Source: an uncultured Bacilli bacterium
GTDB taxonomy: Bacteria; Bacillota_I; Bacilli_A; RF39; UBA660
Reading direction: 5' to 3'
DNA length: 49,395 bases
Assembly (NCBI GenBank): GCA_944358855.1
Contig: CALVSC010000002.1
Span: forward strand, 1 to 49,395
Notes under the pieces: generated by a model
The model's input: the letters and a program-made list of their open reading frames with translations, nothing else
What the model was told of the DNA's origin: nothing
Databases searched by the model: none
Translations under genes and position numbers: made by a program
Shown here: positions 27,516 through 46,633 of the stretch, piece by piece
How positions within the stretch are numbered: position 1 is the stretch's first letter
Layout of the letters: each line of letters begins with the position of its first letter

Positions 27516-28190
27516 CTATTCTAGTAATAATCGTATAGTTCCACCTTCTTCTAAGCGTTCCCCACTTGGTGGTGACTGAGATATTACTTTATTTCCAGTT
27601 CCTGTATATTCAATCGTAAAGTCTTTTAATTTTTTCTTTGCTTCTTCTACTGTTTTTCCTACTACGTTTGGTATTTTATGGGTAGGTATATCACTCCATT
27701 CTAAGTCTTTTTCCAGACCATTATCCTGTTTTTCTATTTTTAGGGCATCAATAATATCTAAGAGGATACGTCTTGCGATAGGAGTTGTCGTATAACTTGA
27801 AAGAAGAGCTGTATTTTTAGGATTATCGATTGCTAAATAGAGTACTGCTTTCGGATCATTAGAGGGTACGATGGCCATAAATGACATGATATAGTTTCCA
27901 ACCATATACGTACCATCTTTTACTTTTTGTGCAGTTCCCGTTTTGCCTCCTATACGATATCCCTCGATATAAGCACTTTTTCCTCCTCCTTTTGCGACAA
28001 CACTTTCTAAAGCTTTTTTCATTATTTCAGATGTTTTTTTACTAATTACTTTTCCTACTTTTTCCTTCCTATATTGTTTTATAATAGTACCCGTTTCTTT
28101 TTCCGAAATGTTAGATACTATAAATGGAGTATATAATGTCCCTCCATTAACAACTGCTGAAACTGCCCTTACTTGTTGTAATGTCCTCTT
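27516..28190 (-). pseudogene. 3' segment of a split class B penicillin-binding protein gene (transpeptidase C-terminal part with KTGT, plus one PASTA domain)
   Basis: The stop-to-stop frame reads ...QQVRAVSAVVNGGTLYTPFIV...GGKTGTAQ...PASTA. There is no credible start or SD of its own. It continues exactly where the 38920..40176 segment breaks off. Confidence 0.9.
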
Positions 28191-29814
28191 CTAAATGATA
28201 CTCTTTTCCTAAATTATTACTGGAGGCTGTTACTGTCGTTCCAGTTTTAAAAATAATATTTAATCTTACTTCTTTTTCCTTTTTTTCACTTTTATTAACG
28301 ATTATTTTTTCTACCAAAGAATTAACTATGTTATTTAAGCAAGCTTTATCATCAATAGAATGTTTTAAACCTTCTTCTATATTCTTTATTTCTTTTTTAA
28401 TAAAATATTTATCATACTTAGTCATTTTTAAGTAATTAATTTGTGTTAAATATTTATTTAATTCTATATTTAATTCATCTATTTGTCTTTTATAATCAAT
28501 GTTTTCTAAATAACCATCTAATACGAGTTCTAATAACTTGTTCTTTTTCGTTTTTATAACAATACATTTTTCATCTAATTTTTTTATTTCTTCGATACTG
28601 GTTTTCGATAACAAATAATTTTTACATTCGTTAATTAAACCTTTAAATATTTTTTTGTTATTAGAATAAATTGTAGATATGATGTTTTTAAATAATTTAT
28701 CTAATTCTTGTTCTACCACTCTACTATTTGTACAGCCTTTCAAACTTTCTTTGCGATATATTTGACATTCCCAGACAGGATTGTTTTTTCTTTTACCAGC
28801 ACTATTTCTATGATAAGTAACGTTATGTATACCACAATATATTTTTCCAGAATAAGTATATCGATTATGAAATATTGTTTTATCTTCAATTTTATTTAGA
28901 TAGCTTTTTCTTCTTCTTTGTAACTTGATATTGGCTTTTTCCCATAACTTTTCTGATACTATGGGTGGAACTTTATCATAATCTTTATATAGAGTCCAGT
29001 TTTCTTTCGTTAGTTTCTTTTTTCTTTTTGTTTTATAATCTATAACTTCTGTCTTATGACCACAATAGTATCCCTTATATTTGGGGTTTTCTATTATTCC
29101 TGAAATAATTGTTGTATCTAATCTTTTTCCGGTTTTTGTTTTATAATTTAAGTCATATAAATATTTAGATATTTTAGATAACCCATCATTTGTATTAGCG
29201 TATCGATCGAAAATTATTTTAATCATTTTCGCTTGATTTTTATCAATTATCAGTTTGCCCTTATCTTTTATATAACCATAAATATTAGATGAACCTAAAA
29301 CAACGCCATTATTAATACTTCTTTTCATACCAAAGGATACTCTTTCTGATAGTTTTCTTACTTCATCTTGAGCAATCGAAGACATTATGGTAAGTCGAAG
29401 CTCTGAGTCAGGTAAAATAGTATTTATATTATCATTTAAAAAATATACTCCTACTCCATTTTGTAGTAATTTTTCTGTATATTTGATACTATCTAGTGTA
29501 CTTCTTGAAAATCTTGATATTTCTTTTGTTAATATTAAATCAAATTTATGGTTTTTAGCATCTTCCATCATTTTTAAAAACTCTTCTCTTTTTTTTACTG
29601 TTGTTCCACTGATTCCTTCATCAATATAAGCCCCTTCGAAATGCCAGTGAGGTATTTTGCTTATGTAATCATTAAAAAAAGAAATTTGATGTGATAAGGA
29701 ATGTAATTGTTCTTCTTTCTCGGTTGATACACGAGCGTAAAAACATACTCTTAAATCTAATTCTTGAAGAGACTTTCCTTGTATAATGTGTTTCCTAACT
29801 GTATATAAATCCAT
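28147..29814 (-). CDS. Large serine recombinase (integrase/excisionase of the intervening element)
   Basis: Resolvase catalytic domain (YARVSTEKEEQ, SRFSRS), recombinase domain, Cys-rich zinc ribbon (CGIHNVTYH...WECQ...C) and coiled coil. The last 11 codons run through the att core into host DNA. Confidence 0.9.
   Translation of the reverse strand: MDLYTVRKHIIQGKSLQELDLRVCFYARVSTEKEEQLHSLSHQISFFNDYISKIPHWHFEGAYIDEGISGTTVKKREEFLKMMEDAKNHKFDLILTKEISRFSRSTLDSIKYTEKLLQNGVGVYFLNDNINTILPDSELRLTIMSSIAQDEVRKLSERVSFGMKRSINNGVVLGSSNIYGYIKDKGKLIIDKNQAKMIKIIFDRYANTNDGLSKISKYLYDLNYKTKTGKRLDTTIISGIIENPKYKGYYCGHKTEVIDYKTKRKKKLTKENWTLYKDYDKVPPIVSEKLWEKANIKLQRRRKSYLNKIEDKTIFHNRYTYSGKIYCGIHNVTYHRNSAGKRKNNPVWECQIYRKESLKGCTNSRVVEQELDKLFKNIISTIYSNNKKIFKGLINECKNYLLSKTSIEEIKKLDEKCIVIKTKKNKLLELVLDGYLENIDYKRQIDELNIELNKYLTQINYLKMTKYDKYFIKKEIKNIEEGLKHSIDDKACLNNIVNSLVEKIIVNKSEKKEKEVRLNIIFKTGTTVTASSNNLGKEYHLEEDITTSKGSFSSC
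28171..28180. repeat. att core copy (attL/attR), ACTTGTTGTA
   Basis: Identical 10-mer at 38927-38936 in the same orientation. Confidence 0.85.
28192..28205. repeat. Element-end inverted arm, TAAATGATACTCTT (P' arm of the putative attP)
   Basis: Its reverse complement AAGAGTATCATTTA matches 38906-38919 (AAGGGTATCATTTA) at 13 of 14 positions. Confidence 0.75.
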
Positions 29815-29830
29815 CCTCTATTCTCCTTAC

Positions 29831-29953
29831 TTAAATTATTTTATTCATAACAAAGTTATACATATCTTTCGTTATTATATTATTTTGTTTTAAATATGTA
29901 AGCAAGGTCATTTTTATTTCTTTTTCTATCGATTTATTCATCATATTTTTCAA
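29831..29953 (-). CDS. Small 40-aa ORF immediately upstream of the recombinase gene (possible accessory or directionality factor)
   Basis: TTG start 6 nt after AAAGGAG. The product is (M)KNMMNKSIEKEIKMTLLTYLKQNNIITKDMYNFVMNKII. It lies 16 nt from the recombinase start. No family recognised. Confidence 0.3.
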   Translation of the reverse strand: MKNMMNKSIEKEIKMTLLTYLKQNNIITKDMYNFVMNKII

Positions 29954-30010
29954 ATATCTACTCCTTTCTAATCTCATAAAAATTATATGAAGATATGGAA
30001 AATTTATGGC

Positions 30011-30035
30011 AAAAAAAAACAACAAAATGTTGTTT
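30011..30035 (-). terminator. Intrinsic terminator after ackA
   Basis: AAACAAC-AAAAT-GTTGTTT followed by T9 on the minus strand. Confidence 0.6.
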
Positions 30036-31287: not shown

Positions 31288-31387
31288 AGTTTTCACCTCC
31301 TATAAAAACCTTTTATATTTTACCATTTTTTGAGCAAAAAGACAAATATTACTCACTTTGAACATTGATTTTAACTAGAAAAGCAAC

Positions 31388-33646
31388 CTAATTTTTGGTT
31401 GCTTTTAATAAAGTTTTGGGTCTTGTTTTTGGTTGTTGATGAGTGGTTTGCGGAAGGTCTTCTGCTTGTTCTTCCCATCTTTTATATTCTTCTGTTAATG
31501 CTCTTCTCATTTCTAAATAAGTAGTAGAATTTAATATATTATTATCGTATAAGTCTCTTAGTTGCCCTAAAGTTGAAGTTTTTTCTTCTTGAAGTGTTTT
31601 TCTATCTTTCATTATTACTCTTGGTATTTTTTGATCAGGATGATCAAATCTAAAGCCTGCTGTTGGAGTTATATTTACATTTAATAGTTCTTGGGCTCTT
31701 CTTAGTGTTTCTTTATGTCTTTGTTCCTCGTCTATTTCTTTGCTTATTCCATTGTAAGGTCTTAGTGTCATTCTTTCGTAAGGTTCTGTTATAGATGGTT
31801 TTCTCTCTATTACAGATTTCATTTCATTATATAGCCCTTTACCATTGGTATCTAATAATACAACAGGAGTTGATTCATAGGCCATTGGAAATTCATCTCC
31901 ACAAAAAGTAGAGACTTTAATTTGTCCTTGATCAAAAGAAATAATAAACCTAGTATCTCTTTTCATTAGTTCTAGATACATATCATCCTTTTCTTCTTCT
32001 GAAAGTGATACAAATTGACTTTTAGCATAGTCAAATAAAACTTGATTTTCTAATAATAATCCGGATAGAATTTCCTCCTCGGTAGTGTCTATTGTTTCTA
32101 AATATGCTCTTATAAGGTTTTCTTTTTGATCTTTTGATAAAGTAGTACGTAAATGGTCTTTCATTGGTGTTATTATTTTATGTTCTAGAGTTTTTACTGT
32201 ATTCATACTATAGATTGTTCCTGATAGTTCTCTATTTTGTGGTTCAGCAAATATTATTGCTTTTTTAGGATCAGAGTGTGTAAGTCCTAAATATTTATAA
32301 CTTGGAACATGTTCTCTCGTTCCTAGCTTTATACATGGTGTTAGTATCTCTATATGGTCTTTATATGTTGCGATGTATACAGCCTTACTATTTTCAACAG
32401 GTAATATAAATCTTTCTAATTTAATTAACCCATCTCTATCCTTCACCTTCGCAACTGCATGTATATCTCCTTGTATACATGATACAAAAATACTTTCTAA
32501 CTCTGCTTGCTGTTGTTGGAGTTTGTTTTTGTATGAAGAAAATTTTAAACTATTCATATCTAACTCTATTTTCTCTCCAGCTACCTCTACTATGTACTTT
32601 CCTGTCGAAGGATACTCTGTTACTGTTTTTTCTACATTTGATTTATCATATATCTTTCCATTTCTGTCTATAAAAAATTTATGACCACATAACTCAAATT
32701 CGTAGATTTCATTATCTTTTACTTCTTTTTCTAATTCTAAAGCATCTCTAAATTCTTTTAGTTTTTCTTTTAATTTTTCTATTATATCTTTATTATATAT
32801 ACCTAGTTTTCTAATATAGGATTCGTCTAACTCATTGAAAAACTTATCCATATACTCATCATCTGGTGCTGGTCGTTCTAATAATAATTCTACTATATTT
32901 TTATATTCCCAAAATAATAATTTTCCTATCGTGCTTGTTTTATCAGTTATTAAATCTCGCTGTGCAGCAATATAGTCTTTATCTTTTATTGCCTCAGCAA
33001 ATGGATAAGGGCTATTCCGGGGATTTTCGTGATATCTTTCGGCATCCTTCATAAATTTTTTCCAGAGGCTTGATGGAGAATTACTAAAATCTATTCCTCC
33101 TTTTAAAAACTTACTATAACTTTCTTTATCACCTTTTAATAATCTAGCAAATCTTGCCATACTAGTTTGAGGCTTATAAACTGCACTATTATCTTCTTGC
33201 ATGATTGCTTCTGTTAACATCTGCGTTAGTGCCTCATTCATAAACGCTGTTTTTAGGGCTTCTTTATCTGTTTGCAGATCATAAAAAGCACCTGCCACTA
33301 CCAGAAAATGAATAAATTCATGACATAGTACACCATCTAATGTTTCGGGATCATCTAAAATGCTTTCATTAATGTAAATTCTTCTTTGTAGCATACTAAA
33401 TAAACCGTTGGCTTTCCGTTGGCTTAACTCTTTACTTACAACAATTTTATATTTTCCTGTTCCTTCTTTTAGCAAAAGATCCTGAAGAAACTTTCTATAA
33501 TTTCTTTCCTTGGTATATCCTCTATCATTAAAAAACTTTTGGATTTTTCTCATTACCCTACGAAATGAATCTATTAGTCTTGGATCTATCTCTATCTTAT
33601 CCAGATTACCTTTCGATAATAAATCAACAAAACTTCTATCTTCCAT
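31388..33646 (-). CDS. 752-aa protein with an N-terminal zincin (HExxH) metallopeptidase-like domain, as in polyvalent proteins of mobile elements
   Basis: CHEFIHFLV followed about 30 residues later by MNEALTQMLTE (HExxH plus a downstream Glu). The remaining roughly 600 aa are unrecognised. Confidence 0.55.
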   Translation of the reverse strand: MEDRSFVDLLSKGNLDKIEIDPRLIDSFRRVMRKIQKFFNDRGYTKERNYRKFLQDLLLKEGTGKYKIVVSKELSQRKANGLFSMLQRRIYINESILDDPETLDGVLCHEFIHFLVVAGAFYDLQTDKEALKTAFMNEALTQMLTEAIMQEDNSAVYKPQTSMARFARLLKGDKESYSKFLKGGIDFSNSPSSLWKKFMKDAERYHENPRNSPYPFAEAIKDKDYIAAQRDLITDKTSTIGKLLFWEYKNIVELLLERPAPDDEYMDKFFNELDESYIRKLGIYNKDIIEKLKEKLKEFRDALELEKEVKDNEIYEFELCGHKFFIDRNGKIYDKSNVEKTVTEYPSTGKYIVEVAGEKIELDMNSLKFSSYKNKLQQQQAELESIFVSCIQGDIHAVAKVKDRDGLIKLERFILPVENSKAVYIATYKDHIEILTPCIKLGTREHVPSYKYLGLTHSDPKKAIIFAEPQNRELSGTIYSMNTVKTLEHKIITPMKDHLRTTLSKDQKENLIRAYLETIDTTEEEILSGLLLENQVLFDYAKSQFVSLSEEEKDDMYLELMKRDTRFIISFDQGQIKVSTFCGDEFPMAYESTPVVLLDTNGKGLYNEMKSVIERKPSITEPYERMTLRPYNGISKEIDEEQRHKETLRRAQELLNVNITPTAGFRFDHPDQKIPRVIMKDRKTLQEEKTSTLGQLRDLYDNNILNSTTYLEMRRALTEEYKRWEEQAEDLPQTTHQQPKTRPKTLLKATKN

Positions 33647-33736
33647 TTTATCACTCCCTTATATTGTTTTGTTAATAAAAGATTCGCGCTTATTATACCA
33701 TAAAATGCTACATTTTTCTACTGCATATTTTTTCAT

Positions 33737-33760
33737 AAAAAAAGAGGAGATGTCTCCTCT
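33737..33760 (-). terminator. Intrinsic terminator after the CnaB-repeat gene
   Basis: AGAGGAG-ATGT-CTCCTCT followed by T7 on the minus strand. Confidence 0.6.
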
Positions 33761-34949
33761 ATTCATGATTACATTTTTTAAATTTATATGCTGTTAGACC
33801 AAGCCCTGTAAGAGAAATTATAAATAATGTGGTCATTATTATAATAGAATCACTTGTATTAGGGTTATTCACTTCTACTTTTTGTTGTTCTTGTGGCGTA
33901 TCTACTAAATCTCCAATATATTTTGCATCTACTACAAATCCTTCTTTATTATCTCCAGTAATTGTAAATTCATAGTCTTCTGTATTTTCTAATCGTAAAC
34001 TATATTGACTTGGTGTTTTTTCTTTCTTATTTTTATATAAGTTGGTAATTACTTCTTCCCAGTCGTCTTCTTTTGTTACAGTGATGGTTTGTTCTTGGGT
34101 ATCAAAGTTATATAAACCAAATTCTAATTTATCTGGTCTTTTCTTTGCTTTGTCATTTTCATCGTCCCAGTTTATTGTTACTTTAGAATCATCGATACGA
34201 TATGGTTCATGTGTTATATAAACATCGATATTTCCTTCTTCATCCACAACTATTTTATAATCATAATCAGGATTAGCATAAAGTGATTTATAAACAAATT
34301 GTACTGGTTTATCTAGAAGTGGATTTCCAAATTCGTCTTTATGATAAGCATCTTCTATATATACTTCTTTTTGACAAGTATTTGCATCTATATAAGTATC
34401 TTCTTCATCTGCACAACTTACTCTAATATATTTACCGTCATCTCCATCTAAAGCAATATCTGTATCCCTATAAAAATCTCTGGCATTTCCATCGTCCCAG
34501 TGTTCTGTATATGTGATAGTTTTAAATGGTAATATATAAAAATCTACTGTTAAAGTTCTATTTTCTCTTGTAATATAATCTTTTGTTCCTAAAGGATATG
34601 AATAATGTGGAAATCTAGCATTTTCCGTATAGTATATTTGGGCTCCATCTTCGTGATCCATATATACAATTCTCTCTATAGACCATATTGTTGTTTCATC
34701 ATCTACTCTTCTAACATCTACTTCATCTTTTTTAAATGTATAATTGTATTCTTCTTTTAAATTTACATTATCCATGAATTGTAATGTTATTTCATCTGGT
34801 CTGTAACCTAATTTGTTATCATAGTCGTGCCAAGCAATTTCAAATGTTACAGGTACAAAAGTATCGTCGATTAAAGGTGCGGCAGATACATTTGTTGTTA
34901 AACAAAAAAACGTTCCTACTAATAATAATAAAGATAATATTTTTTTCAT
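33759..34949 (-). CDS. Secreted surface protein with three CnaB-like repeats and a C-terminal sortase-type sorting signal variant (NPNTSD)
   Basis: Signal peptide MKKILSLLLLVGTFFCLTTNVSA. There are three W(H/D)D..N....RPD-type repeats. The C-terminus is NPNTSD plus a hydrophobic helix plus KFKK. Confidence 0.7.
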   Translation of the reverse strand: MKKILSLLLLVGTFFCLTTNVSAAPLIDDTFVPVTFEIAWHDYDNKLGYRPDEITLQFMDNVNLKEEYNYTFKKDEVDVRRVDDETTIWSIERIVYMDHEDGAQIYYTENARFPHYSYPLGTKDYITRENRTLTVDFYILPFKTITYTEHWDDGNARDFYRDTDIALDGDDGKYIRVSCADEEDTYIDANTCQKEVYIEDAYHKDEFGNPLLDKPVQFVYKSLYANPDYDYKIVVDEEGNIDVYITHEPYRIDDSKVTINWDDENDKAKKRPDKLEFGLYNFDTQEQTITVTKEDDWEEVITNLYKNKKEKTPSQYSLRLENTEDYEFTITGDNKEGFVVDAKYIGDLVDTPQEQQKVEVNNPNTSDSIIIMTTLFIISLTGLGLTAYKFKKCNHE

Positions 34950-35040
34950 ATTTTTCTTCCCAATATTATATATTCTCTTGTTTATAATGTATCATTATAT
35001 TAAATAAATGTAAATATTTTTTATTTTTTTATGATTCTTT

Positions 35041-35226
35041 CTACATAATTTTATACTTGTCTTTATAATCTTTATATTTTATTTTTAGAGCATCTACTGG
35101 TTTTAAGTTTTTAAATGATTTGAATTGCAGTGAGCCTATTGGTTCATTTACAAAACTACCATCATTTACAAAAATATAAATGTAACCTTCTATATCATCA
35201 TCAACACAAACATTTTCCATTGTCAT
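35041..35226 (-). CDS. Hypothetical 61-aa ORF
   Basis: ORF only, with no good SD. A 23-codon ORF with a strong SD overlaps its 5' end in another frame. Confidence 0.25.
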   Translation of the reverse strand: MTMENVCVDDDIEGYIYIFVNDGSFVNEPIGSLQFKSFKNLKPVDALKIKYKDYKDKYKIM

Positions 35227-35329
35227 TATTGGATATTTCTCTTGCTGTTCTATAACAAAATTCCATTTTACACCTTCCTATTTTTTTTATTTCATTTGCA
35301 TTTTCTAGTTCATAACTTTAATTAATCTA

Positions 35330-36181
35330 CTAAACTACAGCTGGAATTAAAATTTCATTAATTATTTTAATAGCATTTATGGTATCAACAAATTCTATAT
35401 CTTTTGCATATTCATAAGTTTTTTGATAACTATTCCATAAAGTTTTTAATCTTGAATCATCACTAATTAATCCTATATATTTATTAGCATTTTCAATATA
35501 ATCTAATGTTTCGCGTGATGCAGATGTATTAAAAATTGCTTTTCTTAAAGTATTCTTATTAATGTCATTCCATTTTAAATTAACAAACATATATAAATCA
35601 TAGTAATCTTTCATTCTAGTGTTATCAATATTTCTACTAATAATAGATTCAAACTTTTCGGCAATAATTGTTTCATAATTATAAGTCATAATATCAATAG
35701 TTTCATTATCAAATAAGGTGCTATATTTAAATTCTACTTCTTTATAAGTGATAATATCTCCAGTAGTAATATCTATCATTAAATTAGTTTTTAAGCCATC
35801 AAACGCTGCTTTTAAATTCACTTCAAAGCCTGAATATAATTCTTCTTTTCTGATATCTTTAATATTTTCTATTTCAAGTTTGACATTATCATCTAAATCG
35901 ATACGAATAATTTCATTAATAACTTTAGTAATAGTTTCTCTATCTAGTGGCAATCCTTTTATTGTAGTATCTAAATCCATTGTGCTTCTTAAATTAACAC
36001 CAAAGATAGATGACAATAAAAGTCCACCTTTAATGATAAACTTATCTTTATATTTAGATTTTGATATTCTTCTTAATAAAGCTTCAAACATAAAGTTTTG
36101 AATTATATATTTATTAGGTATGTTAGTTTTCTTTGATAAGTTAGATACTTTTGTTTTTAGACTATCTCTATTTTTGATCAT
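35330..36181 (-). CDS. abiEii: AbiEii/AbiGii-family nucleotidyltransferase toxin (type IV TA / abortive infection)
   Basis: FIIKGGLLLSS...RSTMDLDTT...IDITTGD matches the DUF1814/AbiEii signature. There is a 4-nt ATGA overlap with the upstream antitoxin gene. Confidence 0.88.
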   Translation of the reverse strand: MIKNRDSLKTKVSNLSKKTNIPNKYIIQNFMFEALLRRISKSKYKDKFIIKGGLLLSSIFGVNLRSTMDLDTTIKGLPLDRETITKVINEIIRIDLDDNVKLEIENIKDIRKEELYSGFEVNLKAAFDGLKTNLMIDITTGDIITYKEVEFKYSTLFDNETIDIMTYNYETIIAEKFESIISRNIDNTRMKDYYDLYMFVNLKWNDINKNTLRKAIFNTSASRETLDYIENANKYIGLISDDSRLKTLWNSYQKTYEYAKDIEFVDTINAIKIINEILIPAVV

Positions 36182-36765
36182 CCGAGCACCTCGAAAGTAT
36201 CTCTTACTTTATTATAAATATTCATCTTTTTAGCATATTCATATAGTTTTAAAGTGTTTTTATTTTTACTATAAAAGTATTCTCTTATAGCCTTATTAAA
36301 AATTTCAGCATCTATTTTCTTTTTGTTTTTAATAATATCACAAATAGTTTTATCTAAATCATAAACTCTAATAATATTACCAGAATCTAGTTTATAGTTA
36401 GTTACTCCTAATTCTAATAACTCTCTTTTTGTATAAAATAAATTAACTTTCTTTTCTTTTTGAAGTGAACCATTATAACCACTATTAACTGTAATATCAT
36501 ATATAATAGGAATTCTATTAGAAAAACCGTGCAAATATAAAGCAGTTGTATTTGAATAAATAGCATTTTTACTTTTGCTTTGTAAAATAACAAATTCATC
36601 TATTAGATCATTTTTCTTAATATATACTCCTCGACTTACTCTTTCTATTTTATTTTCTTTAATAAGTTTAGTTAAATAAAATCTTGGGATATTATTATAA
36701 TTAACATTTTTAGTAGTTAGATAACCATTTTTAAATAAATTTAAAATTTTATTTTCATATTCCAT
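36178..36765 (-). CDS. abiEi: AbiEi-family antitoxin / transcriptional autoregulator
   Basis: N-terminal wHTH with the ...ERVSRGVYIKKN motif typical of AbiEi_4. It is paired with AbiEii. Confidence 0.85.
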   Translation of the reverse strand: MEYENKILNLFKNGYLTTKNVNYNNIPRFYLTKLIKENKIERVSRGVYIKKNDLIDEFVILQSKSKNAIYSNTTALYLHGFSNRIPIIYDITVNSGYNGSLQKEKKVNLFYTKRELLELGVTNYKLDSGNIIRVYDLDKTICDIIKNKKKIDAEIFNKAIREYFYSKNKNTLKLYEYAKKMNIYNKVRDTFEVLG

Positions 36766-36783
36766 ATTATTACTTTCCTTTCA

Positions 36784-36819
36784 CGATTAAATTATATCAT
36801 ATTTAATCGCATTTGAAAA
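36784..36819 (-). promoter_or_regulatory. abiE promoter with an embedded inverted-repeat operator
   Basis: Minus strand: TTTTCA (36814-36819), a 17-nt spacer, then the extended -10 TGATATAAT. The 9-bp inverted repeat CGATTAAAT-N8-ATTTAATCG (36784-36809) brackets the -10. Confidence 0.5.
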
Positions 36820-36934
36820 CAATGTTATTATAATTTTTTTATATAAAAAATATCTATATCATCTAATAATAACAAATTAGCATTATAAAAATACTGACAC
36901 ATAAATTGTAATTTATCAATCAAAGTAGTTTTGC

Positions 36935-37900
36935 TTAATACAAAGTGAGTTTATCAATAAAATAACATTTCCCAGTTTCCAAAAAATGTTCCATCGCAAT
37001 AAATGATTTCCCAACTTGATTTAATGTTAATTTTAATCTATAAAAATCAACTTCTCCGGCCCCATTCTTATATGGATAGATTTTAGGTAATGTATCACTA
37101 TATTTCAAAAGTTCTTCACCTTTTTTACCAAGCATAAGTGCTAAGTCTCTATCAGTAAATTCTTGTTTACAACGACAGTCTTCCTCCATATTTTCTTCAT
37201 AGAACTCTTTGTCAATTTCTACATCTGCCCAAGGAAAAAGTTCACGGATTACATGTTCATATTTCTTAATTCCAAATCCAAACATTTCTCTTTGAAATAA
37301 TATTTTTTCTTCTCCTTCTTCTTTTACTTTAAGTATAAATGTTCCTCGCCCAGAAGACTTATTTATCCACTCTTGAACTTCTAAAATACTTTCATCGTGT
37401 TTTAAAGTTTCCAACATCCAATCTTTTGCTATTACTAATGAATTCCATCTTCTTTCATAATCACTTTGTTTATTAGCTAAATCTCGAATTTTTTCACATG
37501 AGTTTTCTAGCGTTTGATTATAAGGAATATTAATTTTCCAACCATTTTTACACTTTATTGCTGTTTGTTTATTAATTACTTCCCATATATACCTATCACT
37601 TGATGGAGAATATAGAACAATAATAACTGAAAGTGAATGATTTATCCAATAATTATAATGTTTGATATCTCCACGAAACACCACATTGTTTCCTTTTTTT
37701 TTACTAAAATACGAATCGCCTGATTTTATTTGAACCGCTATTAATTTTCCAGAAAGATAATTATTGTCTTTTGTTTCTATTATAGCATCTATACCATAAT
37801 CACCTATCGGTTGTTCTCGAAACATAAATCCTAATTCTTCAAATTTTGATGCACATTTATAAACACCTTGTCTTTCAATATTTTCAGTATTATTCATCAT
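36935..37900 (-). CDS. DUF4365-domain protein (predicted PD-(D/E)xK restriction-endonuclease-fold N-domain plus an unknown C-domain)
   Basis: GDYGIDAIIE...GKLIAVQIKSG matches the DUF4365 D..(D/E)xK core. The roughly 200-aa C-terminal region is unrecognised. Confidence 0.75.
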   Translation of the reverse strand: MMNNTENIERQGVYKCASKFEELGFMFREQPIGDYGIDAIIETKDNNYLSGKLIAVQIKSGDSYFSKKKGNNVVFRGDIKHYNYWINHSLSVIIVLYSPSSDRYIWEVINKQTAIKCKNGWKINIPYNQTLENSCEKIRDLANKQSDYERRWNSLVIAKDWMLETLKHDESILEVQEWINKSSGRGTFILKVKEEGEEKILFQREMFGFGIKKYEHVIRELFPWADVEIDKEFYEENMEEDCRCKQEFTDRDLALMLGKKGEELLKYSDTLPKIYPYKNGAGEVDFYRLKLTLNQVGKSFIAMEHFLETGKCYFIDKLTLY

Positions 37901-37963
37901 TTTCTATATTCACCATCCAATCGTATAATTCACAATTTACACTATATAATAATCTTAATAATT

Positions 37964-38581
37964 CTATCTCATATTTTCATCGACATTATAATCATATTTT
38001 GATTTTATTAGTTGTTGAGCGTATCTATCTAAAAATCCACAAAAAGTGCTAAGAAATCCGGAATTAACTATATTTTCTTCGTTAACCCTTTCATATATAT
38101 ATCTCCAATCCTTAAAAACATTAGATATATTAGAAATTTCTTTTTCAATAAATTGTTTATTTGCTTGCTCACCATATTTTTTATAAAAAAATGAAAAAAG
38201 AACTGTTTTTAAATAATCATCTGTATTTTTATACAATTTAAACAAATTATGTAATTCATAATTTTTTAAAGTATTAAAATTAAAATCAATATCTACTAAT
38301 AATAACTTTAAATAGACTTCACAGGCAAATGATTTATTTACAATAAAGGGATATATTCTTGAAATCATTTTATCTCCACGAAATGAGACTTTTGTTCCAC
38401 CCCATTCAATTACAGTATTATCCTTAATATTATTTTGTTGTGCCGGTAAAATTATCATTTCTTCTTCCAATATAGCATTTTTAAATTGCCTTGCTGTTAT
38501 GTACATTTCTACTAATTTTTTCCCTTTAGGATCAAGTTTTTTATATGGGTCATCAATTTTATCTTTGTTATCAGAGTTCAT
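37964..38581 (-). CDS. Hypothetical 205-aa all-alpha protein, possibly HEPN-like, upstream partner of the DUF4365 gene
   Basis: ATG 38581 after a GAGG SD, with a TATAAT upstream. The weak HEPN-like pattern is ELHNLFKL ... FKDWRYIYE. No family confidently recognised. Confidence 0.5.
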   Translation of the reverse strand: MNSDNKDKIDDPYKKLDPKGKKLVEMYITARQFKNAILEEEMIILPAQQNNIKDNTVIEWGGTKVSFRGDKMISRIYPFIVNKSFACEVYLKLLLVDIDFNFNTLKNYELHNLFKLYKNTDDYLKTVLFSFFYKKYGEQANKQFIEKEISNISNVFKDWRYIYERVNEENIVNSGFLSTFCGFLDRYAQQLIKSKYDYNVDENMR

Positions 38582-38905
38582 ACTATTCCTCGCTTTCAAA
38601 TTTCATTTTGTTTCTTTAAACATATTATACTATAAAAAAACTATTCTCGAATATAATGTTGTTTTTGCACGCATTTTTTGGATGAGGGCGGCAGTGAAGT
38701 ATCTGATGTTGTTGCTAAAAACTTTTGAATACATACTGCAAAACTTCCGTTTTTTGATTAGCTTTTGCAGTCAACAAACAAAAAAGATTAAATCATTATA
38801 GACTTAATCGTAATCTGAATACTAAACAATATTAATATAACACCTATATTCATACTCAACATCATATTTTTTGATATATTTATTATTTAATCCTCTTGTT
38901 ATGGT

Positions 38906-38919
38906 AAGGGTATCATTTA
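38906..38919. repeat. Element-end inverted arm, AAGGGTATCATTTA (P arm of the putative attP)
   Basis: Matches the reverse complement of 28192-28205 at 13 of 14 positions. Confidence 0.75.
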
Positions 38920-40176
38920 TTAGACAACTTGTTGTATAGGAGTTACACTTACTCCTTGACCGAAAGCAGTTGTTGCAAGTTCTACATTTCCAACTTGGTC
39001 TAGGTTAAAAATGATTCCTTGTCCCTCACCATTTAAATCAATTCCTGTTTTTGCTCCAAAACCAAATTTATCAATATATTCAAAAAGTTTATCTTTTCCG
39101 AGTAGTTGGCCCATCTTTACGAATCCTGGATTACAAGAGTTTTGTAAGACTTGTAAAAAGGTTTGTTCTCCGTGTCCCCCTGCTTTCCAACATCTTAAAA
39201 TAGAACCGTCTACATTGACACTTCCAGAATCATAAAAGTGATCTTTTTTTAAATCTACTACCCCCTCTTCTACCGCTGCGCTGGTAGTAATTATTTTAAA
39301 TGTAGATCCTGGTTCGTAAGAAGACCAAATTGGTAAGTTTCTACTGAGTATTTCGGTGTTATAGTTTTGATAATTGTTAGGGTCATAATCTGGTCTTGAT
39401 GACATTCCTAGTATTTCTCCTGTATTAGGATCCATAACGATTGCTAGTGCATTATCTGGAGAAAACATATCTACAATGTTATCTAGTTCTCTTTCTAGAG
39501 ACTTTTGGATATTGATATCAATCGTCAACGTAATATTCATTCCATCTTGAGGAGCTTCATAAATATCCGTTAAATTCAATTTATTTCCTTTTGCATCAGA
39601 AAAATACTTTATAGCCCCACTTTTTCCAGTTAAATATTTATCATATTGTAATTCTATTCCTGATAGTCCTTGATTATCTATTCCAACATAACCTAGGACA
39701 TGTGATAATAATTCTTTGTATGGATAATATCTTTTTGACTCTTTCATCAAATAGACTCCTTCTAAATTTAACTTGGCTATTTTATCTGATATTTCATATG
39801 ATAGTCTTCTACCTTCTGGATGCACTCTTTCAATCGAAGTCTCCTTATAAACGTGTTCTTTCATATCTTCATAACTAACATTTAATATATCTGCTAGTAG
39901 ACGTGTCGTTTTCTTTTTGTTTTTTATTTGATTAGGTATTAATACGAGAGAGGTCGTTGTGAGGTTATCTGCTAAAACAACACCATTTCTATCTAATATT
40001 AGTCCTCTATTTGCTTCTACTGGTAAATCTCTACTCCATAAGTTTTTGGCATATTTATTTAATTTATTATAGTCTATCATTTGAACGTAGAAAACGCGTA
40101 ATATAATTAATAATAATAGGAATAATAAAACTAAAAATATTATTTTTATTCTTTTATCTATTTTTCGTAAAAACAT
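38920..40176 (-). pseudogene. 5' segment of the split class B penicillin-binding protein gene (membrane anchor, PBP dimerisation domain, SxxK and SxN motifs)
   Basis: TM anchor IIFLVLLFLLLLIIL, active-site GSTFK and the SCN motif. It ends ...FGQGVSVTPIQQVV*, two codons past the att core. Start at ATG 40176 (SD GAGGTG). Confidence 0.9.
38927..38936. repeat. att core copy, ACTTGTTGTA
   Basis: Identical to 28171-28180. Confidence 0.85.
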
Positions 40177-40248
40177 ATTTTCACCTCTACTATTTTTTAT
40201 GTTTTTACCAATAAAAAAATGTAGACAATTCATGCCTACATTTTCTTT

Positions 40249-40749
40249 TTAATTATATCTTTTTCTAAGATAAAGTCCTACACCAGTTAATGATGTGAAA
40301 GAAATTGTAAATAATGTAATCCATAGTGGAATATTATCACTTGTTTCTGGAGACTCTACTCTTTCTTGCTCTGTTGGAGGAAGAGTTCCTTCTTGAGCTT
40401 GTAATGGCGTATAGGAATAACCTGTTACTTCAGATAATGGCGTTACCTTATATTTATAATTAGCTTCAAAGGTTAAAGATATTTCTTCATTTGGTTCTAA
40501 GCTAATCGTTGCCTGACCATCTACAAATTCTACATCATTTACTACTTTTGTAAATGTTTTATCATCCAATTCAATTAAGTAATCAAACTTAATATTTTCT
40601 TCTGTGCTAGAACTCACTTCATTTCTTATTGTTAAGGTCCTGCTAGTTTGTTCTATAGAATAACTTGGCTTTAGTAATAACACCGAAACTAATATTATCA
40701 TTATTGACATTGCAAATAACATAATTAACTTATGATTTCTTTTTTTCAT
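40249..40749 (-). CDS. Small secreted surface protein with a C-terminal SPETSD sorting-signal variant (pilin/CnaB-like fold possible)
   Basis: A signal/anchor N-terminus and a beta-rich domain. The C-terminus is SPETSD plus a hydrophobic helix plus RKRYN. Confidence 0.6.
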   Translation of the reverse strand: MKKRNHKLIMLFAMSIMIILVSVLLLKPSYSIEQTSRTLTIRNEVSSSTEENIKFDYLIELDDKTFTKVVNDVEFVDGQATISLEPNEEISLTFEANYKYKVTPLSEVTGYSYTPLQAQEGTLPPTEQERVESPETSDNIPLWITLFTISFTSLTGVGLYLRKRYN

Positions 40750-41839: not shown

Positions 41840-44800
41840 TTATGCTGCTCTTTGACGAGAGTTTGTATCTGTGTTTTCTCTTTCTCTTTGTGCTTCATCA
41901 AAGTCTATTACCATGTCTCTTAATTCTCTATTTCTATCATCTGCATATGCAGTTTGATTATGATGCATTTCTGAACTTACTCGTGCGGCCAAAGCAGCTG
42001 CTGATGCAGCACCAAATAATGTAGTTGCTAGGTCGCTTGGAAGATTTCCTAAAGCTTGTACTTGTTCAGCTGTAAGTCCTGCTAAAGAATCTCCTAGATT
42101 GGTAACATCAACCATACCTTGGTTCATCTGTTGAATGACATCAGGGTTTTGTACCATATATTGCATTGCTTGTGATAGACCATCAAGTTCAAATTGTGGA
42201 TGTCCTGGAATATATTGTTCTAATACAGGTAATGATTGTGATAGAAGATCATTAAATGATTGTTGCGTTGAATTTGCCAAGTCACTTAGTTGTTGCAATG
42301 CTTGAGCATGTGTCATTGTTCCAGCAGCACATTGATTTGCTATATCAGTAAGCTGCGATTGAGCTTGTTGTTGCATTTGTTCCGCAGCAGCGTGTCCGGC
42401 ATCATCAATTTGTCTATATGTATCTGAACCAATTGCCCAGCCACCATATTGTTCTGCAGAAGAGTCTAGTCCATATCTTTCATTGGTGTTAATTCTTCCG
42501 ATGATATCTTCTTGGGCTTGTGCTTTCATTCCTTCACCGAAGGTTTCGCGATATCCCGCAATTTGTTCTCCCGTTGTATGTGCTTGATCTATTGCTCCTT
42601 GATTAGTTGCATTAGCATTTGCAATTTGATCATTATGAGCATCAACTGTCTGTTGAACATTTGAATGTGTATGCCATGCATTGACAGCACTTACAGTTGC
42701 TCCAACAGTAGCAATTGTTGTTAATAGATTTCTAACAAATGGATCCGGCCTATAATCAAGCATTGTTGAAAGTGGAGTAAAGTTAAACCTGCCAGTGGAA
42801 CGTCTTCCAAAAACACTTCTTCCTTCTTCTGTATTTCTAGCATATTCTAATGCTTTTGCAACAAAGGCAGTTAAAGCTTGTTCATCATTTCCAGTCTGAA
42901 TCGCTCTTAATTCAATATCTGCAAGTATGCCAAGTTTTCGATCTAATTCAAGTGTCTCTTTACTATTTTTTGGCCTTTTTGCAAATCTGATACCTTGTAA
43001 GTTCATTTTACTATTGACTGCATTTAAGTCTTCTTCTTGCCCATGAATACCATCTGATAAGATGGCGTTTGTTCTATTTTCTAGATTACTAAATTCCGCT
43101 ATTAAACCTGTTGTACCTGCCAATGCATCTCTTTTTTGTTTAGTTAATTTTTCTTTTTCGTCGTCTGTTGTGGCATGATCAATAGCATCATCATATGATT
43201 GAGCTGTTTTATAGCGATTAAATATTGATTTATACATTGCTAACATTCTATTACGATTAGCTTCAACCCTTTCCATTCCTTTCTCACGAAGAACTTCCAT
43301 GATTGCATCGTTTACTACTTGAGACTCATTTCTTTGTAATGCTACATTACCACGATATTGTTGGAATAAAACTTCAATATCTCTATCAGATAAATTTCTA
43401 ATTCTTTCTCTTATTTGTTCTCCAACATCGCTTTGACCTTTTATACGTAGATAAATCTTACCTATACCTTTACCTATAGTACTAACAACTCCCTTTATAA
43501 TTCCCGGAACAAATCCAACAATAGCATATAACCATGATCCGTTTCTCAATTCATTTCTAAAACTATCTCTTACACGTATTCTAGACGCCTTTAATGCTTT
43601 TCCTGTTCTATCATCAAAATTAAGTGGATTACCATTTTCATCTTGTTTTATATCAGCTAATATTGTTTCCAATGATCTTACTTTTGTTGGTTGAAATTTT
43701 ACCTTTGGTTCCTTATTTTCTTCCCCTGGTGGAAGTTGTTTAGGTTCCTTATCCTCTTCTTCAGGATTAGTTGGTCCCATATTTGTTGGATCCGTATTTG
43801 CTGGATCCGTATTTGTTGGTTCCATATTGGTTGGATCTGTATTGGTTGGATCCGCGTTTGTTGGTTCCGTATTTGTTGGATCCGTATTTGTTGGATCCGT
43901 GTTTGTTGGATCCGTGTTTGTTGGATCCGTGTTTGTTGGATCCGTATTTGTTGGATCCGTATTTGTTGGATCCGTGTTTGTTGGTTCCGTATTTGTTGGA
44001 TCTGTGTTTGTTGGTTCCGTATTGGTTGGATCCGTATTGGTTGGATCTGTATTGGTTGGATCCGTGTTTGTTGGCGTGTGTCCAGCAGGAAGTCCTAACG
44101 GTTCTCTTCCAGCAGGAAGCCCTAATGGTTCTCTTCCGGCAGGAAGACCAGGACGAGTTTGCGCACCATAGTGTAATTCATAAGAATGGTCATCTGTTTG
44201 TGTGTCTGCTGTTCCTAGATTATTGCGGTTACCAGCTTCATTATAATATCCGACATCTGCCAATCTTCTACCATATTCGTTTATTAAAAAGTCATGATAT
44301 TGTTCTGGTTCTTCTAACACTCCTTGACTTCTTGGTCTTGGAATAAAAGAATTTGGATAATATACGACGTTTCCGTTTTCATCGTGTTCATAAGTTGGGT
44401 CATATCTTTCTTGCTCTCTTGCTCTTCTTACTCTTCTATACATATCATCCATTCTTTGTAAGACCAAAGCATTGTCTTCTCTATTTTCTGTTATGACTCT
44501 TTGTCTTTCCATTCCATATCTATTGGTAAAGTCTTCTAAGCTCATAGAGAATGGATTGAAGTTTTCGTCAAGAATACTTTCTTGGCTTTCACGCATTTGT
44601 AGTAAATCATCATAAGTCATTCCTGGATAATATCCAGCGTTAGCTATTCTTCTTGTGTATTCACCATTTACAAATGCTTCATATTGTTCCGGATCTTCCA
44701 AATATGCTTGCCTTCTTGGCATTGGTACAAATGTATTTTCATAGTATACAACGTTTCCGTTTTCATCGTGTTCATAGGTTGGATCATATCTTTCTTGTGA

Positions 44801-46621: not shown

Positions 46622-46633
46622 CTTTCTCACTCC

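What the first reader, a model, noticed from the sequence alone, without database searches (positions are those of the whole stretch)
36935..38581. Candidate undescribed two-gene defence module: a 205-aa helical (HEPN-like?) protein plus a DUF4365 nuclease-fold protein
Two co-oriented genes lie 63 nt apart at the distal end of the element, immediately next to the AbiE abortive-infection pair. The downstream gene has an N-terminal DUF4365 / PD-(D/E)xK core (DYGIDAIIE...VQIKSG) fused to an unrecognised domain of about 200 aa. The upstream gene is an all-alpha protein with a weak HEPN-like pattern (ELHNLFKL ... WRYIYE). The region is even more AT-rich than its surroundings. Neither gene matches a named defence system that I can recognise. 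The guilt-by-association context is strong: a mobile-element cargo end, an adjacent Abi system and a nuclease fold.
Basis: inference. Interest (0 to 1): 0.72.

Follow-up and report, generated by a model that had tools for sequence, protein, structure and literature searches.

The report
Two unlinked defence-type genes, not a pair
The two neighbouring genes are real (a HEPN-type helical protein and a DUF4365 nuclease with an unknown second domain), but they are found together only on this one small mobile element, so they look like two separate candidate anti-phage genes stacked beside AbiE rather than a new two-gene system.

Summary
Two co-oriented minus-strand genes lie 63 nt apart next to AbiEi/AbiEii: geneA (37964-38581, 205 aa) and geneB (36935-37900, 321 aa). 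They sit at the recombinase-distal end of a precisely bounded 10,756-bp serine-recombinase element that splits a SpoVD-like PBP gene.

None of 24 non-identical geneA contexts carries geneB. None of 88 geneB contexts carries geneA or any related HEPN. The pair occurs only in copies of this same element with a 100%-identical geneA.

- **geneB:** it belongs to a widespread, fixed-architecture family of about 320 aa with no conserved partner. Its N-terminal domain is a DREN-type (SPARDA effector) PD-(D/E)xK nuclease with the catalytic D38/Q57/K59 intact. Its C-terminal domain, in every listed complete hit, is fused only to DUF4365 and has no structural match.
- **geneA:** it is a divergent HEPN of the classical HEPN-T type. 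R160 is kept, the canonical downstream H is absent, and an upstream H111 is invariant. Its relatives sit beside varied restriction nucleases or inside type I R-M operons.

Best reading: two independent candidate single-gene defence genes in a mini defence island. Neither has been tested experimentally, and interest is moderate to low.

The parts
37964..38581 (-). geneA: 205-aa divergent HEPN-domain protein with an N-terminal helix plus a small beta-sheet extension. Conserved E88, K92, H111, R160 and Y161.
   Evidence: ORF and RBS. 78 homologue clusters. Alignments A1 and A5 give the invariant residues. The family profile finds 2535 representatives, and 27 of 67 sampled hit Pfam HEPN PF05168. 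AF2 model pLDDT 87, with Foldseek top hits 4nqf, 2hsb and 1o3u, all HEPN, at weak E-values.
37901..37963 (-). 63-nt spacer between geneA and geneB. It has no terminator-like hairpin.
   Evidence: fold z-score 0.35.
36935..37900 (-). geneB: 321-aa protein. Residues 1-~130 form a DUF4365/DREN-type PD-(D/E)xK nuclease (D34, D38, E42, Q57, K59). Residues ~133-321 form a family-specific alpha/beta domain with motifs EWINKSSGRG, LFPWA and GEVxFYRL.
   Evidence: Pfam DUF4365 E=3.7e-33. The PADLOC Aga_REase model matches the N-terminus only. PDB profile hit to DREN-APAZ 9jsb at E=1.2e-12 over residues 5-111. Foldseek hit to SPARDA chains at E=3e-10. C-terminal alignment A3; in the listed hits the domain occurs only with DUF4365; no PDB or BFVD match.
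36178..36765 (-). AbiEi antitoxin/regulator. It is a neighbouring, separate system.
   Evidence: PADLOC AbiEi E=7.7e-64. In sister contigs L100 and L104 an IS30-like insertion separates it from geneB.
35330..36181 (-). AbiEii nucleotidyltransferase toxin. It is a neighbouring, separate system.
   Evidence: Pfam AbiEii E=1.4e-36; PADLOC E=2.7e-90.
38927..38936 (.). Element junction next to geneA: the 10-bp direct repeat ACTTGTTGTA (plus-strand reading), located inside the 5' fragment of the split PBP gene.
   Evidence: In L106, sequence identity to the window starts exactly at this core, in a different host gene.
28171..28180 (.). Element junction at the recombinase end: the second copy of the 10-bp repeat.
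   Evidence: Deleting the 10,756 bp between the repeats restores a 653-aa PBP reading ...VTPIQQV|RAVSAVVNGG...
28147..29814 (-). Large serine recombinase (555 aa) of the element that carries the two genes.
   Evidence: Pfam Resolvase E=2.6e-29 and Recombinase E=2.6e-17.

Best explanation
The locus is not a dedicated two-gene system. It holds two evolutionarily independent, normally solitary genes of defence-island type. They have been brought together, with an AbiE pair, in the cargo end of a 10.76-kb serine-recombinase mobile element.

geneB is a one-protein nuclease. Its N-terminal DREN-type PD-(D/E)xK domain keeps the residues whose mutation abolishes SPARDA nuclease activity. Shown: the fold, the homology and the intact catalytic residues. 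Inferred: the family-specific C-terminal domain keeps the nuclease off until a cue arrives, such as a phage component, foreign or modified DNA, or induced oligomerisation as in SPARDA filaments. The nuclease then degrades DNA, giving restriction or abortive infection.

geneA is a small HEPN protein of the classical HEPN-T/AbiV-like kind. It lacks the canonical Rx4-6H histidine but keeps R160 and an invariant upstream H111, the 'alternative active site' pattern. Shown: HEPN superfamily membership by transitive homology and weak fold matches, and recurrent placement beside restriction nucleases. Inferred: it is an RNase or RNA-binding abortive-infection effector that acts on its own or as a homodimer.
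For: - No co-occurrence outside copies of this element. Of 19 geneA loci from GTDB species genomes, 15 have at least 1 kb of downstream sequence, and none encodes geneB. Of 80 geneB loci (from 184 found), none encodes geneA or any HEPN of the broader family.
- Ten further metagenomic contexts of the closest homologues also lack the partner, as do a phage record and two plasmids.
- The pair is present only in seven contigs whose geneA product is 100% identical.
- geneB neighbours are heterogeneous: 84 Pfam families among 137 flanking proteins, none in more than 3. This suggests an autonomous gene.
- In the 120 hits listed, the C-terminal domain occurs only fused to DUF4365, in proteins of about 320 aa; the three exceptions are truncated or short entries.
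- geneB D38/Q57/K59 align with NbaDREN D41/Q60/K62. The triple mutation of those residues abolishes SPARDA nuclease activity (bioRxiv 10.1101/2023.06.08.544223). DxGxD..QxK mutants also lose toxicity in EAT16 (PMC11297309).
- A single-gene DUF4365 anti-phage protein exists: Divona (bioRxiv 10.1101/2024.07.02.601686).
- geneA is HEPN. The alternative-H pattern is described for HEPN-T and AbiV in PMC3710099.
- geneA relatives lie next to Shedu SduA, GmrSD-HNH and Mrr_cat, or inside type I R-M operons.
- In sister contigs an IS sits between geneB and AbiEi, which shows modular, separable cargo.
Against: - There are no experimental data for either family.
- The genes are 63 nt apart and co-oriented, with no terminator between them, so they may be co-transcribed here. 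A lineage-specific functional coupling cannot be excluded.
- geneA itself does not reach any HEPN model directly, and the Foldseek E-values are weak (0.13).
- Some family members of both genes sit among housekeeping genes, so a defence role is not universal by context.
- The role of the geneB C-terminal domain as a sensor is pure inference.
- Metagenomic contigs are short, and some contexts were cut close to the gene.
Confidence: 0.55

Rival explanations
1. geneA is a promiscuous 'add-on' HEPN. It partners with whichever DNA-targeting nuclease lies beside it: DUF4365 here, and Shedu SduA, GmrSD-HNH, Mrr or type I R-M elsewhere. It would act as a back-up RNase triggered when that nuclease is inhibited or overwhelmed, following the PrrC/EcoprrI logic. 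On this reading the window pair is functional, but the partnership is with a class of neighbour, not with geneB's family.
For: In 5 of 6 independent contexts of the close clade (at least 60% identity), a DNA nuclease gene lies within two genes on the same strand:
- the window itself (geneB);
- L107, Mrr_cat;
- L109, SduA;
- L112-114, a different SduA;
- L122, GmrSD_N/HNH, 18 nt upstream.

Distant relatives are embedded between hsdM and hsdS (L016, L018). PMC3710099 notes clustering of HEPN-T with R-M operons and the PrrC precedent.
Against: More distant relatives (38-45% identity) flank housekeeping or plain mobile-element genes with no nuclease: QueH-GNAT, radical SAM, ABC transporter, Mob/integrase. 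Defence islands are dense in nucleases, so adjacency may be passive. The sample is small, with no statistics against a background, and there is no experimental support.
Confidence: 0.15
2. The pair is a genuine, recently assembled two-gene system specific to this element lineage. For example, geneA could regulate or neutralise the geneB nuclease in a toxin-antitoxin-like manner, or both effectors could respond to one trigger.
For: The genes are co-oriented with a 63-nt spacing and no terminator. The two genes move together: the same element end, beginning with the pair, is found at a second insertion site (L106).
Against: Co-occurrence is zero at any divergence beyond identity. Both families persist alone in many lineages, so neither needs the other. 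The shared mobility is explained by both being on the same element.
Confidence: 0.1
3. The genes serve the mobile element itself rather than phage defence. Possible roles are post-segregational stabilisation or addiction, or a DNA-processing role for the Hjc/TnsA-like DUF4365 nuclease in element recombination.
For: - DUF4365 has Hjc-like topology and a TnsA-like active site (bioRxiv 10.1101/2023.06.08.544223).
- Foldseek also finds the homing endonuclease I-Ssp6803I and phage Holliday-junction resolvases.
- Many homologues are on ICEs, plasmids or prophages.
- The adjacent AbiE is itself a toxin-antitoxin pair.
Against: The geneB family has no conserved recombinase or transposase partner. It also occurs among chromosomal metabolic genes. 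The element already has a serine recombinase, which needs no accessory nuclease (established knowledge). The geneA family's R-M association points to defence.
Confidence: 0.12

Closest known systems
DREN-APAZ effector of SPARDA (short pAgo systems; PDB 9jsb, 9jsz, 9qcc, 9vx6)
   Same: The geneB N-terminal domain is a sequence and structure homologue of the DREN nuclease. The profile hit is E=1.2e-12 and the Foldseek hit is E=3e-10, with rmsd about 3.2 A over about 145 residues. The catalytic D/Q/K residues are conserved.
   Different: No APAZ domain: the PADLOC and PDB matches stop at about residue 115, and the C-terminal profile finds nothing in the PDB. No Argonaute gene is nearby. The protein is 321 aa against about 440-470 aa. 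Guide-directed activation is therefore impossible, so the trigger must differ.
Divona (single-gene DUF4365 anti-phage protein from the Vibrio cholerae chromosomal integron)
   Same: It is a one-gene arrangement of an N-terminal DUF4365 nuclease plus a second domain, carried on mobile DNA, and shown experimentally to protect against phage.
   Different: Divona's second domain is reported as crr6 (PF08847). geneB gives no crr6 hit even at E<=1. I could not compare the sequences directly.
Classical HEPN / HEPN-T family (Pfam PF05168; AF0298 2hsb, TM0613 1o3u) and AbiV
   Same: geneA shares the helical HEPN core. It has the E-x3-K helix, an invariant H N-terminal to the conserved R, and an 'RY' motif without the canonical downstream H. 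That is the alternative-active-site pattern described for HEPN-T and AbiV, and R-M clustering is also noted. Its size is similar to AbiV (about 200 aa, from my own knowledge).
   Different: geneA does not reach PF05168 directly, and no AbiV model hit appears in Pfam or PADLOC. It has an extra N-terminal helix plus a beta-sheet of about 70 aa. There is no MNT partner gene.
AbiE (AbiEi/AbiEii type IV toxin-antitoxin abortive-infection system)
   Same: It is the immediate neighbour on the same strand, in the same element cargo region.
   Different: It is a complete, self-sufficient known pair. geneA and geneB share no homology with it and are separated from it by an IS in sister contigs.
Gene-intervening elements of spore formers (skin in sigK, SPbeta in spsM, gin in gerE)
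   Same: The carrier element is a serine-recombinase element that splits a coding gene. Precise deletion between short direct repeats restores that gene (PMC5595907 and PMC4191935 listed).
   Different: The interrupted gene is a SpoVD-like PBP. The one three-term, two-of-three search I ran did not find spoVD reported as a target. The same element end is also found in an unrelated HTH gene, so it behaves as an ordinary mobile element. Sporulation-linked excision was not tested.

Membership tests
Conserved two-gene defence system (the finding's claim) | The two genes co-occur as neighbours across diverged genomes | tested here: not met
   0 of 24 non-identical geneA contexts and 0 of 88 geneB contexts have the partner. 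The pair occurs only in contigs whose geneA product is 100% identical.
Pfam DUF4365 (PF14280) / DREN nuclease | Domain match above the gathering score | tested here: met
   geneB scores 115 bits against a cut-off of 24.3, E=3.7e-33, over residues 9-136.
Pfam DUF4365 (PF14280) / DREN nuclease | Catalytic motif DxGxD...QxK intact | tested here: met
   D34, G36, D38, E42, Q57 and K59 are invariant in alignment A2. They align to NbaDREN D41/Q60/K62.
SPARDA (short pAgo + DREN-APAZ) | APAZ domain C-terminal to the nuclease | tested here: not met
   The PADLOC Aga_REase-PNTD1-PNTD2 model matched only positions 9-116 of 429. The PDB profile hit covers residues 5-111 only. The C-terminal profile A3 gives no PDB hit at E<=10.
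SPARDA (short pAgo + DREN-APAZ) | Adjacent short Argonaute (MID-PIWI) gene | tested here: not met
   The neighbours are geneA (HEPN), AbiEi and a PBP fragment. The Pfam census of 137 flanking proteins (25 of 84 families displayed) lists no Argonaute family; one neighbour matched the pPIWI-associating nuclease family pP_pnuc_1.
HEPN superfamily | Significant match to a HEPN family model | tested here: inconclusive
   geneA itself gives no hit at E<=1. Its family profile retrieves about 150-170-aa relatives at E<=1e-14, of which 27 of 67 hit PF05168. One relative, L016, scores 23.8 bits against a cut-off of 22. Membership is therefore by transitive homology.
HEPN superfamily | Four-helix up-down HEPN fold | tested here: inconclusive
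   The AF2 model has pLDDT 87. Foldseek ranks HEPN structures first (4nqf at prob 0.99 and TM 0.60, then 2hsb, 1o3u, 1ufb, 7ae8), but the best E-value is only 0.13.
HEPN superfamily | Canonical Rx4-6H RNase motif | tested here: not met
   R160 is invariant, but no H follows within 4-6 residues (WRYIYERVN). Instead the invariant H111 lies upstream. This matches the 'alternative H' variant of HEPN-T/AbiV (PMC3710099).
HEPN-MNT toxin-antitoxin | Adjacent minimal nucleotidyltransferase gene | tested here: not met
   The flanking genes are the PBP fragment and geneB. There is no MNT next to geneA; the nearest nucleotidyltransferase, AbiEii, is three genes away and paired with AbiEi.
AbiV | Match to AbiV family models | tested here: not met
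   geneA has no AbiV hit in Pfam or PADLOC at E<=1. The resemblance is limited to size and active-site pattern.
Divona | DUF4365 fused to a crr6 (PF08847) domain | tested here: not met
   DUF4365 is present, but there is no PF08847 hit at E<=1.
AbiE | AbiEi plus AbiEii pair | tested here: met
   This is met for the neighbouring genes 36178-36765 and 35330-36181. geneA and geneB are not part of it.
Any family: anti-phage function | Protection against phage or plasmid, or regulated toxicity | not testable with these tools
   This requires cloning and phage challenge.

The most novel reading that the evidence does not exclude
Small geneA-type HEPN proteins are interchangeable 'guard' modules. They dock genetically next to unrelated DNA-restriction nucleases: DUF4365 here, and Shedu SduA, GmrSD-HNH, Mrr or type I R-M elsewhere. 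They would fire as back-up RNases when the neighbouring nuclease is blocked by phage anti-restriction. In parallel, the about 320-aa geneB family would be an untested, widespread single-protein immune nuclease. Its private C-terminal domain, with its conserved EWINKSSGRG loop, would be a new sensor that switches on a DREN-type collateral nuclease without any Argonaute.
Probability: 0.12. Interest if true: 0.6.

Novelty: new variant of a known kind. Interest (0 to 1): 0.33.

Why it matters
The proposed new two-gene system is not one, and that saves cloning it as a unit.

geneB is the more useful lead. It represents a large family: 184 matches in the GTDB species-genome collection and at least 774 protein clusters. 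The family is known only as 'DUF4365 domain-containing protein'. It couples the SPARDA-type collateral nuclease to a different, structurally unmatched domain and appears to work without a partner. If it defends, it would show that the DREN effector has been recruited outside Argonaute systems with a new trigger.

geneA adds a well-populated branch to the HEPN-T class, whose catalytic competence is still unsettled. Its repeated placement next to restriction nucleases gives a testable guard hypothesis.

The carrier element, a small serine-recombinase element splitting a SpoVD-like PBP gene and loaded with three defence-type modules, is a tidy example of a portable mini defence island.

Tried and rejected
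- **Direct family assignment of geneA:** Pfam, PADLOC, NCBIfam and a PDB profile search all gave nothing. Only the exhaustive profile search followed by a Pfam scan of the remote hits linked it to HEPN.
- **APAZ or other known fold for the geneB C-terminal domain:** there was no sequence hit in the PDB and no convincing Foldseek hit in PDB or BFVD beyond the nuclease domain. Some SPARDA chains aligned over about 400 columns, but at rmsd of about 23-33 A, which I do not accept as evidence.
- **A conserved partner for geneB:** neighbour clustering found only a clade-restricted 132-aa downstream gene in 8 loci of a 36-37%-identity subclade. It is absent here and has no PDB match.
- **A conserved partner for geneA:** none was found. 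Shedu adjacency was seen in two independent contexts only.
- **Is L107's DUF4145 neighbour related to the geneA family?** hhalign gave no relationship.
- **L109's 291-aa and L121's 343-aa neighbours:** no PDB match.
- **Marked AT-richness as a sign of separate origin:** rejected, since the region is at the 15th percentile only.
- **Plasmid and phage collections for geneA:** no match.
- **Promoter or terminator between the genes:** nothing above chance.
- **Literature on spoVD as a target of intervening elements:** nothing was found in the one search run.
Full report
**1. The observation**

The region holds two minus-strand ORFs. geneA is 37964..38581, 205 aa from an ATG preceded by GAGGA; a TTG at 38599 would give 211 aa. 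geneB is 36935..37900, 321 aa. They are separated by 63 nt.

Both are real genes. geneA has 78 homologue clusters and geneB at least 534 in the 5.8-billion-protein collection, most of those listed aligning over nearly the full length.

geneB matches Pfam DUF4365 (PF14280) at E=3.7e-33 over residues 9-136, with nothing for the remaining ~185 aa. geneA has no significant hit in Pfam, PADLOC or NCBIfam. AbiEi (36178..36765) and AbiEii (35330..36181) lie directly downstream.

The claimed extra AT-richness is marginal. The region is 26.4% GC against 29.1% for the window, which is the 15th percentile. geneB is average at 28.5%, and the AbiE pair is lower at 21.9%.

No terminator-like hairpin and no above-chance promoter separates the two genes. 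Co-transcription is possible but not shown.

**2. The setting**

Most of the window is chromosomal. It encodes AddA/AddB-like helicase-nuclease, glycosyltransferases, an ABC transporter, an M18 peptidase, MYG1, dCMP deaminase and MraY.

The PBP ORF at 38920..40233 stops in the middle of its transpeptidase domain. The missing part, with the KTG motif and a PASTA domain, is ORF 27516..28022 and the in-frame sequence upstream of it.

A 10-bp direct repeat, ACTTGTTGTA, lies at 28171-28180 and 38927-38936. Removing the 10,756 bp between the copies restores an uninterrupted 653-aa PBP (...VTPIQQV|RAVSAVVNGG...). A 555-aa large serine recombinase (28147..29814) sits at one end of the insertion, and geneA is the first gene at the other end.

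The same element end occurs in contig L106, inserted into an unrelated HTH gene beside a tRNA. Identity to the window begins exactly at the CAACAAGT core.

**3. Is it a two-gene module?**

This was tested in both directions.

- **From geneA:** its family alignment (A1) retrieved 19 loci from 185,579 species genomes. Fifteen have at least 1 kb of downstream sequence. None encodes a geneB relative by tblastn or hmmsearch.
- **From geneB:** its alignment (A2) retrieved 184 loci, of which 80 were kept, from Bacillota, Actinomycetota (many Streptomyces), Acidobacteriota, Bacteroidota, Binatia and others. None encodes geneA or any HEPN of the broader geneA superfamily.

The closest non-identical geneA homologues are already elsewhere:

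| Homologue | Identity to geneA | Context |
|---|---|---|
| P0124, P0128 | 73-74% | downstream of a Shedu SduA gene and a 159-aa HEPN paralogue |
| P0126 | 67% | after Mrr_cat and DUF4145, in an island with Hachiman |
| P0130 | 67% | on a MobL element |
| P0133 | 62% | after another SduA |
| P0139 | 61% | 18 nt after a GmrSD_N/HNH gene |

The closest geneB homologues are likewise elsewhere:

| Homologue | Identity to geneB | Context |
|---|---|---|
| P0002 | 82% | ICE-like region with ArdA/RadC |
| P0003 | 74% | near a relaxase gene |
| P0004 | 72% | next to a type III-like methylase/ResIII pair |
| P0010 | 72% | among DpaA, SpoVS and RecA |
| P0015 | 69% | a moron inside a prophage structural module |

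The pair is found only in seven contigs that encode a 100%-identical geneA, that is, copies of the same element. In two of those contigs an IS30-like insertion separates geneB from AbiEi, which shows that the cargo consists of separable units.

**4. geneB**

The AF2 model (pLDDT 86) has an N-terminal alpha/beta nuclease domain, three linker helices, and a second alpha/beta domain.

Foldseek's significant PDB hits are all DREN-APAZ chains of SPARDA (E down to 3e-10; rmsd ~3.2 A over ~145 columns), followed by the homing endonuclease I-Ssp6803I. A family profile also hits DREN-APAZ by sequence at E=1.2e-12, over residues 5-111.

In that alignment geneB D38, Q57 and K59 correspond to NbaDREN D41, Q60 and K62. 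The triple mutation of those residues abolishes SPARDA nuclease activity. The same DxGxD..QxK residues are needed for toxicity of the eCIS toxin EAT16. They are invariant in the geneB family.

The C-terminal domain has the motifs EWINKSSGRG, LFPWA and GEVxFYRLxLxLN. It is not APAZ by any test I could run. It has no PDB or BFVD structural match. In the 120 hits listed it occurs only fused to DUF4365, in proteins of ~310-350 aa; three entries are truncated or short.

Flanking genes are extremely heterogeneous: 84 Pfam families among 137 neighbours, none in more than three. They mix methylases, AbiH, STAND NTPases, HamB, transposases and Xre/M78 regulators with housekeeping genes. Only one ~37%-identity subclade has a conserved 132-aa downstream gene.

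geneB therefore looks like an autonomous one-protein nuclease. A single-gene DUF4365 defence protein, Divona, has been validated in Vibrio cholerae, but with a different second domain.

**5. geneA**

The AF2 model (pLDDT 87) is helical with a small beta-sheet insert near the N-terminus. Foldseek ranks HEPN structures first (4nqf, 2hsb, 1o3u, 1ufb, 7ae8), though with weak E-values of 0.13 or worse.

An exhaustive profile search found 2535 representatives. Most are 150-170 aa and match profile positions ~60-190. Of 67 sampled, 27 hit Pfam HEPN PF05168. One archaeal relative, embedded between hsdM and hsdS, passes the Pfam threshold.

Across this set K92, H111, R160 and Y161 are invariant, and E88 nearly so. 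There is no histidine 4-6 residues after R160.

Anantharaman et al. (PMC3710099) describe exactly this variant for the HEPN-T family (2hsb) and AbiV. The motif H is lost and a conserved H sits N-terminal to it, which may form an alternative active site. They also note clustering of this family with R-M operons.

Direct membership, however, rests on transitive homology, and catalytic competence is unproven.

**6. Mechanism and alternatives**

The best-supported reading (about 0.55) is that two independent candidate immunity genes are stacked with AbiE on a small mobile element.

- **geneB (inferred):** a nuclease held inactive by its private C-terminal domain and released by an infection cue or by oligomerisation, as DREN is in SPARDA filaments.
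- **geneA (inferred):** a HEPN-T/AbiV-like RNase or RNA binder acting in abortive infection.

Three rivals remain.

- **(a) geneA as a generic add-on** to whichever restriction nuclease is adjacent. Five of six close-clade contexts have one within two genes, but distant relatives do not, and no background statistics were possible.
- **(b) A lineage-specific true pair.**
- **(c) Element-maintenance functions.**

**7. Verdict**

The domain calls and the setting are right; the two-gene system is not. Nothing here is categorically new.

geneB is a new variant of a known effector class, a DREN nuclease with an uncharacterised regulatory domain and no Argonaute. geneA is a divergent member of a known HEPN class. 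Interest is modest, about 0.33. The most useful follow-up is to test geneB alone.

Noticed in passing
window 28171-38936 (repeats at 28171-28180 and 38927-38936); PBP fragments 38920-40233 and ~27516-28170, minus strand: A SpoVD-like PBP gene beside mraY is split by a 10,756-bp element carrying a large serine recombinase. Deleting the DNA between the 10-bp direct repeats ACTTGTTGTA restores an intact 653-aa PBP with a PASTA domain. This resembles skin/gin-type gene-intervening elements. The one literature search I ran did not find spoVD reported as a target.
   Followed up: partly
L106:1-700 compared with window 38600-39300: The same element end (geneA side) is inserted in a different gene, a 72-aa HTH_31 regulator next to a tRNA. 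Sequence identity to the window starts exactly at the CAACAAGT core. The element is therefore actively mobile and has at least two target sites.
   Followed up: partly
L100:11755-12732 and L104:5334-6311 (equivalent to window ~36766-36934): In sister contigs an IS30-like insertion (rve plus HTH_38 ORFs) sits in the geneB-AbiEi spacer. It is absent from the window.
   Followed up: no
window 30034-31296 (minus strand): An acetate-kinase-like gene (420 aa; PF00871 in L100) lies inside the mobile element, between the recombinase and a 752-aa protein of unknown function. This is unusual cargo for such an element.
   Followed up: no
window 41840-46630 (minus strand): A 1596-aa protein with four long internal repeats (ILDE(D/N)FNP...YDPTYEHDENGNVVYY...) and a run of PTNTD/PTNTE pentapeptide repeats. 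The equivalent gene is called at 1089 aa in contig L100, so its length may vary between strains.
   Followed up: no
window 33759-34949 and 40249-40749 (minus strand): Two predicted surface proteins, one inside and one outside the element, end in similar anchor-like C-termini (NPNTSD... and SPETSD..., followed by a hydrophobic stretch and basic residues).
   Followed up: no
L112:3207-5549, L113:843-3186, L109:3898-6609: Close geneA homologues lie two genes downstream of Shedu SduA genes in two unrelated versions. In L112-114 the gene in between is itself a 159-aa HEPN paralogue of the geneA superfamily (E=2e-19), giving a tandem HEPN pair after SduA.
   Followed up: partly
L016:4706-9542 (Methanocorpusculum) and L018:5336-10028: Distant geneA relatives of 157-166 aa are embedded in type I R-M operons between hsdM and hsdS, together with a Schlafen AlbA_2/HATPase_c_4 protein (L016) or a Fic protein (L018).
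   Followed up: partly
L082:6978-7376 and the equivalent positions in L084, L087, L090, L091, L092, L094, L098: A 36-37%-identity subclade of the geneB family (Streptococcus, Clostridia) has a conserved 132-aa gene immediately downstream (overlapping by up to 7 nt to 22 nt in seven loci, 98 nt in L092). It has no PDB match and is absent from the window. This may be a true two-gene variant of the family.
   Followed up: partly
L120:4022-6755 (Paraburkholderia terrae plasmid pPT365): A full-length geneB homologue (34% identity) lies between two AAA/ATP-binding protein genes and an annotated LA2681-family HEPN protein of 505 aa. This is another nuclease-HEPN adjacency, but with an unrelated HEPN family.
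   Followed up: no
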